A DNA stretch of 64,000 bases from the human T2T-CHM13v2.0 reference genome, Homo sapiens, in assembly GCF_009914755.1 (NCBI RefSeq), contig NC_060947.1. One strand, 5' to 3'. Position numbers and translations under genes: made by a program. The notes beneath the pieces are model-generated. The model saw nothing but the letters and a program-made list of their open reading frames with translations. It did not search any database and was not told the DNA's origin. Below, one piece after another: positions 19,722 to 28,300 of the stretch (its first letter is position 1; every line of letters starts with the position of its first letter).

Positions 19722-20999
19722 CAATGGTGTTGGGAAAATTGGCTAGCCACATGTAGAAAGCTGAAACTGGATCCCTTCCTTACACCTTATACAAAAATTA
19801 ATTCAAGATGGATTAAAGACTTGCATGTCAAGCCTAAAACCATAAAAACCCTAGAAGAAAACCTAGGCAATACCATTCAGGACATAGGCATGGGCAAGGA
19901 CTTCATGTCTAAAACACCAAAAGCAATGGCAACAAAAGTCAAAATTGACAAATGGGATCTAATTCAACTAAAGAGCTTCTGCACAGCAAAAGAAACTACC
20001 ATCAGAGTGAAGAGGCAACCTACAGAATGGGAGAAAATTTTCACAACCTACTCATCTGACAAAGGGCTAATATCCAGAATCGACAATGAACTCAAACAAA
20101 TTTACAAGAAAAAAAACAAACAACCACATCAAAAAGTGGTTGAAGGATATGAACAGACACTTCTCAAAAGAAGACATTTATGCAGCCAAAAAACACATGA
20201 AAAAATGCTCATCGTCACTGGCCATCAGAGAAATGCAAATCAAAACCACAATGAGATACCATCTCACACCAGTTAGAATGGCAATCATTAAAAAGTCAGG
20301 AAACAACAGTTGCTGGAGAGGATGTGGAGAAATAGGAACACTTTTACACTGTTGGTGGGAGTGAAAGCTAGCTCAACCATTGTGGGAATAGGTGTGGTGA
20401 TTCCTCAGGGATCTAGAACTAGAAATACCATTTGACCCAGTCATCCCATTACTGGGTATATACCCAAAGGGCTATAAATCATGCTGCTATAAAGACACAT
20501 GCACACATATGTTTATTGCGGCACTATTCACAATAGCAAAGACTTAGAACCAACCCAAATGTCCAACAATGATAGACTGGATTAAGAAAATGTGGCACAT
20601 ATACACCATGGAATACTATGCAGCCATAGAAAATGATGAGTTTGTGTCCTTTGCAGGGACATGGATGAAGCTGGAAACTATCATTCTCAGCAAACTATCG
20701 CAAGGACAAAAAACCAAACACTGCATATTCTCACTCATAGGTGGGAACTGAACAATGAGAACACATGGACACAGGAAAGGGAACATGACACACTAGGGCC
20801 TGTTGTGGTCTGGGGTGAGGGGGGAGGGATAGCATTAGGAGATATACCTAACGCTAAATGACGAGTTAATGGGTGCAGCACACCAACATGGCACTTGTAT
20901 ACATATGTAACAAACCTGCGCATTGTGCACATGTACCCTAAAACTTAAAGTATAATAGTAAATAAATAAATAAATACATAAATAAATAAATAAATAATA
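19722..20999 (+). mobile_element. 5'-truncated young L1PA (PA3-PA4-like), 1.3 kb
   Basis: Well-preserved ORF2 C-terminus and 3'UTR, (TAAA)n tail, TSD aaaagaatgct at 19711-19721 and 21000-21010. Confidence 0.95.
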
Positions 21000-21289
21000 A
21001 AAAGAATGCTAAAAAAACTGAGTATAGAAGAAACATATCTCAAAATAATAAATGCCATATCCGACGGACCCACAGCATCATACTGAATGGGAAATAACTG
21101 AAATCCTTTCTCCCAAGATCTGGAACATGATAAGAATTTCGACTTTCTCTACTGCTATTCAACATGGTACTGGAAGTCCCAGCTAGGGCAATTAGAAAAG
21201 AGAAGGAAATAAAGGGCATCTAAATTTGAATGGAAGATGTAAAATTTTCTTTGTTTTCAGATAATATGACCTTGTATTTTGAAAAATAT

Positions 21290-21704
21290 TGTAATACTCC
21301 CTTGGTGCACTGCTATAAAGAAACATCTAAAACTGGGTAATTCATAAAGAAAAGAGTTTTAATGGGCTCACAGTTCTGCAGGCTGTACAGGAAGCATGAT
21401 GTTGACACATGCTCAGTTTTTGGGGAGGCCTCAGGAAACTTTCAATTATGGCAGAAGTCAAAGAGGAATCAGCACTTTACATAGCCAGAGAAGAAGCACA
21501 AAAGAAAGCAGGAGGAGGAGCTACAAACTTTTAAACAATCAAATCTCATGAGAACTTACTCACTATCCTAACAACAGTACCAAGAGGAAAGATGCTAAAC
21601 CATACAGGAGGAACTGCCTCTATGATCAAATCACCTCCCACTAGGTTCCATTGCCAACATTGGGGATTATAATTTGGGGAGGGACACAGATCTAAAGCAT
21701 ATCA
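21290..21704 (-). mobile_element. MST-type MaLR solo LTR
   Basis: tg...ca termini; ctgggtaattcataaagaaaagag...ctcacagttctgcaggctgtacaggaagcatg. Confidence 0.85.
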
Positions 21705-24109: not shown

Positions 24110-25315
24110 AGGAAAACAGAGCTGGAGTCATCACATTGCTCAATTTCCATCTATAATAAAAGTGTACAGTAACCAAAACAGCATGGTACAGACACAAAAG
24201 CAGACACACAGACCAACTGAACATGAGAGAGAGTCCAGAAATAATGCTGCACACCTACACCTATCTGATCTTTAAAAAAATCATCAAAAACGGGAAATAG
24301 GGAAAGGACTTCCTATTCAATAAACGGTGCTGGAATAACTGGCTAATAAAATGCAGAAGATTGAAACTTGTCGTGTCCCTTACACTATTTAAAAAACCCT
24401 CAAGATCAATTTAAGACTTAAATATAAAACCTAAAACTATAAACACCATGGAAAATAACCTAAAAAGTTTCATTCTGGATGTATAAACAGGCAAAGATTT
24501 TACAAAAAAAGATGCCAAAAGCCATTGCAACAAAAACAAAAATTGACAAACGGGACCTAATTAAATTAAAGATCTTCTGCACAGTAAAAGAAGCTATCAA
24601 CGGAATAAATAGAAAACCTACACAATGGGGGAAGACATTCACAAACTATGCATCCAACAAAGGTCTAATACCCAGAATATGTAAGGAACTTAAATTTACA
24701 AGCAGAAAACAAACAACTGAGTTAAAAAGTGGGCAAATAACATGAGCAGATACTTTTCAAGAGAAGACTTACATACAGCCAATAAGTATATGAAACAATG
24801 CTCAACACCACTAATTCTTAGAGAAATGAAAATCAAAACCAGAATGAGACATCATCTGACCCCAACCAAAAAGTGTATTATTAAAAAGTGAAAAAATAAT
24901 AGATGTTGGTGAGGATGCAGAGAAAAGGGAATGCTTATATATTTCTGGTGGGAATGCAAGTTAGTTCAGCCACTGTGGAAAGCAGTTTGGTGATTTCTCA
25001 AAGAAGGTAACATGGGTGCTGCTGTAGGCCATTATCCTAAGCAAACTAACATAGGAACAGAAAATCAAATACCACAGGTTCTCACTTATAAGTGGGCGCT
25101 AAACATCAAGTACATGTGGACACAAAGAATGGAACAGCAGAGGCAGGGATTTACTTGAGAGCGGAGTGTCAGAGGAGGGTGAAAATTGAAAGACTATGGG
25201 GTACTAGGCTTATTACCTGGGTGACTAATCTGTACACCCAACCCCCATGACACAGAATTTACCTATATAACACACCTGCACGTGTGCCCTTGAACATAAA
25301 ATAAGAGATAAAAAG
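24110..25315 (+). mobile_element. 5'-truncated old L1PA/L1PB with internal deletion near 25010
   Basis: ORF2 remnant 24479-24745 ([19 protein letters not shown]) and 3'UTR. Confidence 0.85.
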
Positions 25316-28300
25316 CATTTTTATAAAGAAGTTTTGAGATATTTTAGCAAATCAGAATTGAAGTGTTGTCAAATGCAAAGGAGGCTAATATTGCCTCAAC
25401 TTCCTCTTTTTATTTTTTTATTATACTTTAAGTTCTAGGGTACATGTGCACAACATGCAGGTTTGTTTCATATGTATACACGTGCCATGTTGGTGTGCTG
25501 CACCCATCAACTCATCATTTACATTAGGTATATCTCCTAATGCTTTCCCTCCCACCTCCTACCACCCCACAACAGGCCCCAGTGGGTAATGTTCCCCTTC
25601 CTACGTCCAAGTGTTCCCATTGTTCCATTCCCACCAATGAGTGAGAACATGCAGTGTTTGGATTTTGTTCTTGTGATAGTTTGCTGAGAAGGATGGTTTC
25701 CAGCTTCATCCATGTCCTTACAAAGAACATGAACTCATCATTTTTTATGGCTGCATAGTATTCCATGGTGTATATGTGCCACATTTTCTTAATCCAGTCT
25801 ATCATTGTTGGACATTTGGGTTGGTTCCAAGTCTTTGCTATTGTGAATAGTGCCACAATAAACATATGTGTGCATGTGCCTTAATTGCAGCATGATTTAT
25901 AATCCTTTGGGTATATACCCAGTAATGGGACGGCTGGGTCAAATGGTATTTCTAGTTCTAGATCCTTGAGGAATCCCCACACTGTCTTCCACAATGGTTG
26001 AACTAGTTTATAGTCCCACCAACAGCGTAAAAGTGTTCCTATTTCTCCACATCCTCTCCAGCACCTGTTGTTTCCTGACTTTTTAATGATCGCCATTCTA
26101 ACTGGTGTGAGATGGTATCTCATTGTGGTTTTGATTTGCATTTCTCTTATGGCCAGTGATGATGAGCATTTTTCATGTGTCTGTTGGACACATAAATGTC
26201 TTCTTTTGAGAAGTGTCTGTTCTTATCCTTCACCCACTTTTTGATGGGGTTGTTTGTTTTTTTCTTGTAAATTTGTTTGAGTTCTTTGTAGATTCTGGAT
26301 ATTAGCCCTTTGTCAGATGAGTAGATTGCAAAAATTTTCTCCCATTCTGTAGGTTGCCTCTTCACTCTGATGGTAGTTTCTTTTGCTGTGCAGAAGCTCT
26401 TTAGTTGAATTAGATCCCATTTGTCAATTTTGGCTTTTGTCGCCATTGCTTTTGGTGTTTTAGACATGAAGTCCTTGCCCATGCCTATGTCCTGAATGGT
26501 ATTGCCTAGGTTTTCTTCTAGGGTTTTTATGGTTTTAGGCTTGACATGTAAGTCTTTAATCCATCTTGAATTAATTTTCGTATAAGGTGTAAGGAAGGGA
26601 TCCAGTTTCAGCTTTCTACAGCTGGCTAGCCAGTTTTCTCAGCACCTTTTATTAAATAGGCAATCCTTTCCCCATTTCTTGTTTTTGTCAGGTTTGACAA
26701 AGATCAGATGGTTGTAGATGTGTGGTATTATTTCTGAGAGCTCTGTTCTGTTCCATTGGTCCATATCTCTGTTTTGGTACCAGTACCGTGCTGTTTTGGT
26801 TACTGTAGCTTTGTAGTAGAGTTTGAAGTCAGGTAGCATGATGCCTCCAGGTTTGTTCTTTTGACTTAGGGTTGTCTTGGCAATGTGGGCTCTTTTTTGG
26901 TTCCATATGAACTTTAAAGTAGTTTTTTTCCAATTATGTGAAGAAAGTCATTGGTAGCTTGATGGGGATGGCATTGAATCTATAAATTACCTTGGGAAGT
27001 ATGGCCATTTTCACAATATTGATTCTTCCTATCCATGAGTATGGAATGTTCTTCCATTTGTTTTTGTCCTCTCTTATTTCATTGACCAGTTGTTTGTAGT
27101 TCTCCTTGAAGAGGCCCTTCACATCCTTTGTAAGTTGGATTCCTAGGTATTTTACTCTCTTTGAAGCAACTGTGAATGGGAGTTCACTCATGATTTGGCT
27201 CTCTGTTTGTCTGTTATTGATGTATAAGAATGCTTGTGATTTTTGCACATTGATTTTGTATCCTGAGACATTGCTGAAGTTGCTTATCAGCTTAAGGAGA
27301 TTTTGGGCTGAGAAGATGGGGTTTTCTAAATATACAATCATGTCATCTGCAAACAGGGATAATTTGACTTCCTCTTTTCCTAATTGAATACCCCTTATTT
27401 CTTTCTCCTGCCTGATTGCCCTGACCAGAACTTCTAACACTATGTTGAATAGGAGTGGTGAGAGACGGCATCACTGTCTTGTGCCAGTTTTCAAAAGGAA
27501 TGCTTCCAGTTTTTGCCCATTTGGTATGATATTGGCTGTGGGTTTGTCATAAATAGCTCTTATTATTTTGAGATACGTCCCATCAATACCTAATTTATTG
27601 AGAGTTTTTAGCATGAAGGACTGTTGAATTTTGTCAAAGGCCTTTTCTGTATCTATTGAGATAATCATGTGGTTTTTGTCTTTGGTCCGTTTATATGCTA
27701 GATTACGTTGATTGATTTGTGTATGTTGAACCAGTCTTGCATCCCAGGGATGAAGCCCACTTGATCATGGTGGATAAGCTGTTTGATGTGCTGCTGGATT
27801 CGGTTTGCCAGTATCTTATTGAGGATTTTTGCATCAATGTTCATGAGGGATATTGGTCTAAAATTCTCTTTTTTTTTTGTTGTGTCTCTTCCAGGCTTTG
27901 GTATCAGGATGATGCCAGCCTCATAAAATGATTTAGGGGGGATTCCCTCTTTTCCTTTTGATTGGAATAGTTTCCGAAGTAATTGTACCAGCTCCTCCTT
28001 GTACGTCTGGTAGAATTCGGCTGTGAATCTGTCTGGTCCTGGACTTTTTTTGGTTGGTAGGCTATTAGTTATTGTCTCAATTTCAGAGCCTGTTATTGGT
28101 CTATTCAGGGATTCAACTTCTTCCTGGTTTAGTCTTGGGAGAGTGTATGTGTTGAGGAATTTATCCATTTCTTCTAGATTTTCTAGTTTATTTGTGTAGA
28201 GGTGTTTATAGTATTCTCTGATGGTAGTTTGTATTTCTGTGGGATCAGTGGTGATATTCCCTTTATCATTTTTTATTGCATCTATTTGATTCTTCTCTCT

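What the first reader, a model, noticed from the sequence alone, without database searches (positions are those of the whole stretch)
19827..26545. Apparent gene-conversion tract between two inverted L1s of different subfamilies
Seen: the + L1 (19722-20999) and the - full-length L1 share three non-canonical variants within ~190 nt. These are gtcaagcc (19827-19834 / 26538-26545; usual gttagacc), aattCaacta (19965 / 26407; usual aattAaacta) and gtgaaGagg (20012 / 26360; usual gtgaaCagg). Both therefore translate DLIQLK...RVKRQ, while the L1 at 55.3-56.4 kb has the usual DLIKLK...RVNRQ. Just downstream the two copies differ at subfamily-type sites (ttcacaacc and caatgaac versus tttgcaatc and caaagaac). 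The + element keeps both TSD copies, so there is no net inversion. Inference: non-crossover ectopic conversion between inverted neighbours whose homologous tracts lie ~6.5 kb apart. The pair could also mediate an inversion polymorphism.
Basis: partly seen in the sequence, partly recalled or inferred. Interest (0 to 1): 0.7.

Follow-up and report, generated by a model that had tools for sequence, protein, structure and literature searches.

The report
Copy-paste patch between neighbouring LINE-1s
Two neighbouring LINE-1 jumping-gene copies that face each other on the human X share a 200-290-base patch of rare letters, likely because one was copied onto the other during DNA repair; that process is known, but one of the letters is also oddly common in LINE-1 copies across whole multi-megabase regions.

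Summary
Observation confirmed. The truncated + L1 (A) and the full-length - L1 (B) share five non-majority bases within 184 nt. They are 98.6% identical over 290 nt and 91.4% elsewhere. Variant 1 (three changes in four bases) has only 3 exact matches in the genome: A, B and a third L1 757 kb away on X. Variants 2+3 together have 4 matches, against 13,230 for the usual pair. A sub-lineage is therefore excluded, and intact target-site duplications show no net inversion. Best reading: non-allelic gene conversion, direction unresolved, perhaps two patches of about 105 nt. The kind of event is known and looks common: lists of rare alleles at nearby sites held five more close L1 pairs sharing an allele, all inverted. 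The identity peak alone is weak evidence. The surprise lies beside the finding. Variant 2 (A>C) has 300 copies against 19 at a control site. It sits in several subfamily types and clusters in multi-megabase domains, one of which holds this window. That pattern is unexplained.

The parts
19722..20999 (+). L1 copy A: 5'-truncated, about 1.28 kb (end of ORF2, 3' UTR, poly-A), inserted in an older L1
19711..19721 (+). left target-site duplication of A
21000..21010 (+). right target-site duplication of A, identical to the left one
19752..20041 (+). homogenised tract in A, outer limits; shared rare bases span 19829-20012; perfect runs 19824-19930 (107 nt) and 19940-20041 (102 nt)
19827..19834 (+). 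variant 1 in A (three substitutions: 19829, 19831, 19832); 3 exact matches genome-wide
19965..19965 (+). variant 2 in A (A>C); 300 copies genome-wide, regionally clustered
20012..20012 (+). variant 3 in A (C>G); 231 copies, mostly scattered
25409..31551 (-). L1 copy B: full length, about 6.1 kb, older type than A; 3' end faces A
26331..26620 (-). homogenised tract in B; variant 1 at 26538-26545, variant 2 at 26407, variant 3 at 26360
25399..25408 (-). 3' copy of B's likely target-site duplication (9 of 10 bases match)
31552..31561 (-). 5' copy of B's likely target-site duplication
21011..25398 (.). spacer between A and B; 21012-22498 continues the old host L1 in the same orientation as the left flank (19426-19591), so it is not inverted
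55268..57390 (.). third L1 in the window (5'-inverted), control: usual bases, no rare allele shared with A or B

Best explanation
Two inverted L1 copies of different age, 6.5 kb apart, share a 190-290-base patch holding five rare bases, most likely because a break in one copy was repaired from the other without crossover (non-allelic gene conversion). Shown: the sharing, its rarity in the genome, different subfamily types outside the patch, no net inversion. Inferred: germline break repair by strand invasion of the nearby inverted copy; an age of a few million years; possibly two patches of about 105 bases rather than one. B likely acts as a local hub, since a third L1 757 kb away carries variant 1 as well, which leans the direction towards B to A without settling it.
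For: Variant 1: 2 exact 18-mer matches against 1,671 for the usual allele; 3 matches with a looser 20-mer, all on X within 764 kb. Variants 2+3 together: 4 against 13,230. Given A's and B's own private-change rates, 16.2 differences were expected in 290 nt and 4 seen, P=0.0003 (tract limits chosen after the fact). All 24 subfamily-type A/B differences lie after 20041. A, B and the third carrier L110 fall in three different parts of a tree of the 3' part, differing at 19-27 of 56 subfamily-type sites. Both target-site duplications are in place. The length fits the 250-bp mean reported for human non-allelic conversion (10.1101/135152, passages). Other close pairs share rare alleles: 5 more pairs under 15 kb in the lists, all inverted, plus L015/L016 (16 kb, inverted, 5 shared rare alleles).
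Against: The identity peak is not special by itself. Variant 2 is regionally common, so it could have reached A and B separately. No site inside the tract separates A's group from B's, so donor and acceptor cannot be read. Two differences 8 nt apart split the tract. The excess of inverted pairs is not significant: 5 of 5 against 3 of 7, P=0.08. No ape or second human genome was available, so the pre-conversion state was not seen.
Confidence: 0.86

Rival explanations
1. The patch is the scar of an inversion and a later re-inversion between A and B, each with its own short conversion patch.
For: Two perfect runs of 107 and 102 nt are separated by one A-private and one B-private base. Recurrent inversions between inverted repeats, including an L1PA3 pair, are described (PMC3961182, passages).
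Against: No net inversion today. Overall homology is only 1.25 kb at 91%, against a 6.2-kb L1PA3 pair in the described case. No swapped block is visible.
Confidence: 0.05
2. A and B were each converted by a common third donor or an L1 cDNA, not by each other.
For: A third carrier of variant 1 exists 757 kb away, and variant 2 is regionally common.
Against: L110 lacks variants 2 and 3. The two unlinked copies with variants 2+3 show no variant 1. No intact copy with all three exists besides the pair, though a lost or indel-bearing donor would be missed by exact patterns.
Confidence: 0.04
3. A's new cDNA switched template to B or to B's RNA at insertion, making a chimeric copy.
For: The patch lies near A's 5' end.
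Against: The first 29 nt of A differ from B at 6 places, 3 of them B-private and 1 private to each. The 4 differences inside the patch are fewer than the insertion age of A predicts.
Confidence: 0.02
4. Shared descent from a minor L1 lineage, or independent mutation.
For: Variants 1 and 3 keep the reading frame open. Variants 2 and 3 each recur in hundreds of copies.
Against: The three carriers of variant 1 belong to three subfamily types and lie within 764 kb. The chance that a given neighbour carries variant 1 is about 1.5e-4. None of the loci picked for variant 2 or 3 that aligned carried the other.
Confidence: 0.01
5. Assembly or polishing error mixed the two repeats.
For: Only one assembly was examined.
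Against: Four differences remain inside the patch, and the third carrier is 757 kb away and only 92.8% identical to B.
Confidence: 0.02

Closest known systems
Non-allelic gene conversion between neighbouring Alu elements (Aleshin and Zhi 2010, seen only as cited in PMC8230782 and PMC6598467)
   Same: Neighbouring retrotransposon copies within about 10 kb share non-diagnostic mutations; stronger on sex chromosomes; mosaic subfamily patterns.
   Different: Here the elements are L1s. One shared change also reaches a copy 757 kb away, and another clusters over megabases.
Non-allelic gene conversion in human gene duplicates (Harpak et al., 10.1101/135152)
   Same: Tract of 190-290 nt against a reported mean of 250 bp.
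   Different: The partners are dead L1 copies about 91% identical, not recent gene duplicates; GC bias cannot be judged from five bases.
Genome-wide ectopic conversion decaying with distance (Steyaert, 10.64898/2026.08.26.747289)
   Same: Short templates; signal strongest nearby and decaying mostly between 100 kb and 10 Mb; more within than between chromosomes. This fits the third carrier and the megabase clusters.
   Different: The parts read deal with present-day variants in mappable regions; 'L1P' and 'inverted' do not occur in the main text; no single L1 site with one enriched allele is described there.
L1-flanked recurrent inversions such as HsInv0341 (PMC3961182)
   Same: Inverted L1PA pair a few kb apart.
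   Different: That pair is 6.2 kb of L1PA3 and inverts; this pair shares 1.25 kb at 91% and shows no net inversion.

Membership tests
Non-allelic gene conversion tract | Shared derived bases between paralogues that are rare elsewhere | tested here: met
Non-allelic gene conversion tract | Bounded stretch with fewer differences than the copies' own divergence predicts | tested here: met
   4 seen, 16.2 expected, P=0.0003; limits chosen after the fact
Non-allelic gene conversion tract | Copies of different descent outside the tract | tested here: met
   21 of 56 subfamily-type sites differ; separate places in the tree, moderate support
Non-allelic gene conversion tract | No crossover: flanks and insertion marks unchanged | tested here: met
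   an inversion followed by re-inversion is not excluded
Non-allelic gene conversion tract | Non-reciprocal transfer with a known donor and acceptor | tested here: inconclusive
   no diagnostic site inside the tract; B shares 5 further rare bases with L110, A none
Non-allelic gene conversion tract | Unconverted state seen in an outgroup or in other haplotypes | not testable with these tools
   no ape or pangenome sequence on hand
L1 sub-lineage marker | Variants co-occur in many unlinked copies of one subfamily | tested here: not met
L1-mediated polymorphic inversion | Inverted spacer in some haplotypes | not testable with these tools
   only one haplotype; no match for guessed identifiers in the 3 supplement files of PMC12350158, which is inconclusive
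Named subfamilies L1PA4, L1PA5, L1PA6 | Match to subfamily consensus at diagnostic sites | not testable with these tools
   no repeat library on hand; the names are recalled guesses, only relative age groups were tested

The most novel reading that the evidence does not exclude
The pair is one node of a regional L1 conversion network, and one base in L1 ORF2 (the A>C at window 19965) is being driven through it. By chains of very short, biased conversions it has spread across unrelated L1 copies inside particular multi-megabase domains (X 73.7-79.0 Mb, chr8 77.5-79.4, chr5 68.4-68.9, chr6, chr18), reaching perhaps a quarter of local copies while staying rare elsewhere. Such alleles would record which parts of a chromosome touch and repair from each other in the germline.
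Probability: 0.3. Interest if true: 0.72.

Novelty: new member of a known kind. Interest (0 to 1): 0.42.

Why it matters
As a single event it is ordinary and far from genes. It matters as a clean, countable example that old L1 copies still exchange sequence, which distorts subfamily calls and age estimates. It also shows a cheap method: rare L1 alleles searched across a complete genome land in close inverted pairs far more often than scattered mutation suggests. If the regional spread of variant 2 is real and driven, it is a site-specific conversion bias in the most abundant human LINE and a marker of germline contact domains.

Tried and rejected
Identity excess as a statistic: A/B ranked only 4th of 1953 pairs, so it was rejected as main evidence. 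Direction from subfamily sites: none informative in the tract. Direction from a possible hairpin around variant 1: A and L110 each have a different extra base that improves a short palindrome; too weak to use. Conversion between A or B and other L1s of the window: the 55-kb copy shares no rare base; the older copies share only scattered single bases, likely ancestral. A chrX copy 260 kb away (L109) has the usual base at variant 2. For the variant-2 clusters: a sub-lineage was rejected because carriers span subfamily types; long co-converted tracts were not seen in 12 chr8 carriers (identical run around the site 72 nt within the cluster, 75 nt to unlinked carriers); a general regional A>C excess was not seen (42 of 391 rare changes in carriers, 94 of 810 in others). 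Nine paper searches listed no paper on this locus or on a region-restricted L1 allele; most subscription papers are not covered, and bioRxiv supplements, including the peak table of the Steyaert preprint, were not seen.
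Full report
Observation. Copy A (+, 19722-20999) is a 5'-truncated L1 with an exact 11-base target-site duplication. Copy B (-, about 25409-31551) is full length, with a likely duplication matching at 9 of 10 bases. Their 3' ends face each other. 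The alignment has 4 differences in 19752-20041, with perfect runs of 107 and 102 nt: 286 of 290 identical, against 818 of 895 after it. Old host L1 on both sides of A maps colinearly onto B's ORF2, so the spacer is not inverted.

Is it more than chance? I counted exact motifs in the whole assembly. Variant 1: 2 matches, the pair itself, against 1,671 for the usual allele. A looser motif gave 3: the pair and a copy at X:78,221,687, 757 kb away. Variant 2 has 300 matches and variant 3 has 231. Together they have 4, the pair plus one each on contigs C10 and C12, against 13,230 for the usual pair. A rough independent expectation is about 5. Exact patterns miss copies with further changes or indels. 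B is the best hit for A's core tract among 40 scored of 1,959 candidates.

Site-by-site test. I aligned 90 fetched loci and the window's 55-kb L1 to A; 56 passed the coverage and identity filters. The panel is not random: 30 loci were picked for the usual variant-1 allele on C1, 30 for variant 2 and 30 for variant 3. Inside the tract A and B share five non-majority bases and differ at 2 A-private and 2 B-private sites. After it they have 26 A-private, 30 B-private, 2 doubly private and 24 subfamily-type differences, and share only five common alleles. Scaled for the region's conservation, 16.2 differences were expected and 4 seen (P=0.0003).

Descent and direction. Outside the tract A, B and the third carrier L110 differ at 21, 19 and 27 of 56 subfamily-type sites and sit in separate parts of a tree with moderate support; L110 is in the youngest group, B in an older one. 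Names such as L1PA4-6 are recalled guesses. L110 has variant 1 only, in a stretch bounded by differences 45 nt apart, and is 92.8% identical to B. It shares 5 further rare bases with B, the most of 64 copies compared (mean 0.73, next 4), and none with A. This is suggestive only, but makes B the likely hub. No site in the tract tells donor from acceptor. Differences since the event are 0.5-0.7% per branch (95% range 0.06-1.8%), near the human-chimpanzee X distance as I recall it. If the two perfect runs are separate patches, each could be younger.

Mechanism. Most likely a germline break in one copy was repaired by copying from the inverted neighbour, without crossover (inferred). Reported mean tract length for human non-allelic conversion is 250 bp (10.1101/135152, passages). 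Conversion among Alus within about 10 kb, stronger on sex chromosomes, is described (PMC8230782 and PMC6598467, passages; the original paper was not held). A 2026 preprint finds ectopic conversion at short templates that decays mostly between 100 kb and 10 Mb (10.64898/2026.08.26.747289: abstract, passages, sections 7 and 12; supplements not seen).

How ordinary is it? Fairly. Among the 95 G or T carriers listed for C1-C8 at the variant-2 site, 6 form three pairs under 10 kb, all inverted and with the same allele. A control allele with 19 carriers gave one inverted pair. Variant 3 in the CATGT class, 16 carriers, gave one inverted pair besides ours. Panel loci L015 and L016, inverted and 16 kb apart, share 5 rare bases in another part of the element. 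The orientation bias is not significant: 5 of 5 against 3 of 7 among usual-allele copies, P=0.08. All motif tests lie within 50 bases of ORF2, so they may not speak for the whole element.

The unexplained part. Variant 2 is an A>C change with 300 copies, while G and T at that site total 186 and a control A>C 33 bases away has 19. Of 98 carriers listed for C1-C8, 52 have another within 500 kb, against 14 of 98 for variant 3 and 15 of 95 for G or T. Twelve lie in C8:77.45-79.36 Mb and one on all of C7. In the fully listed CATGT class, 15 of 43 are on X and 8 in X:73.7-79.0 Mb, the pair included. On C1, 3 of 12 exact CATGT-class copies in 185.5-197.1 Mb carry it and 0 of 87 elsewhere (region chosen after the fact). 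Carriers span subfamily types, show no longer identical runs with cluster neighbours than with unlinked carriers, and show no general A>C excess. Chains of very short biased conversion fit best; a site-specific regional mutation or an assembly effect is not excluded. Only two motif sites served as controls, and the control allele also had 4 of 19 carriers in C9:23.9-26.3 Mb, so this may be the extreme of a general pattern.

Inversion idea. Not tested. Homology is short and 91% identical, unlike the 6.2-kb L1PA3 pair at HsInv0341 (PMC3961182, passages). A search of the supplements of PMC12350158 with guessed identifiers found nothing (passages of the main text), which is inconclusive.

Verdict. 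Real; a new instance of a known process; interest 0.42, raised by the third carrier and the regional allele.

Noticed in passing
genome-wide; site = window 19965 / 26407; L033-L062, L097-L108: The A>C allele has 300 copies against 19 at a control site and clusters in multi-megabase domains (C8 77.45-79.36 Mb, C5 68.39-68.93, C6 75.2-76.1 and 78.9-79.05, C18 49.3-50.2, X 54.3-56.2 and 73.7-79.0) across subfamily types. Cause unexplained.
   Followed up: partly
L110 (G000:C23:78,221,687, minus strand): Third and only other carrier of variant 1, a younger-type L1 757 kb from the pair; shares five more scattered rare bases with B.
   Followed up: partly
L015 and L016 (C1:78.403 and 78.419 Mb): Inverted L1 pair 16 kb apart sharing five rare bases over about 250 nt: a second likely conversion tract.
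   Followed up: partly
C3:183.953/183.961, C6:38.119/38.125, C6:102.361/102.367, C9:23.901/23.916, C4:88.520/88.524, X:56.173/56.179 Mb: Close inverted L1 pairs that share a rare allele at one of the tested sites.
   Followed up: no
L068 and L069 (C1:116.07 and 116.22 Mb); L046 and L047; L042 and L043: Neighbour pairs 7-158 kb apart sharing one to five further rare bases besides the allele they were picked for.
   Followed up: no
L054 (C3) and L081 (C2): Unlinked copies about 98.6% identical with at least 11 shared rare bases along their length: likely true siblings from one source element, a contrast to the patchy sharing of neighbours.
   Followed up: no
window 54755-58230: A 5'-inverted L1 (55268-57390, short spacer at the inversion point) is inserted into an ORF1-ORF2 L1 fragment that resumes at about 57390; a 20-base repeat and a backwards 3' UTR piece lie just upstream at 54610-54780.
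   Followed up: no
window 31432-31470: B's 5' UTR holds a short tandem duplication of about 19 bases.
   Followed up: no
window 19820-19832 and the matching place in L110: A and L110 each carry a different extra base beside variant 1 that improves a short palindrome with it; B has neither.
   Followed up: partly
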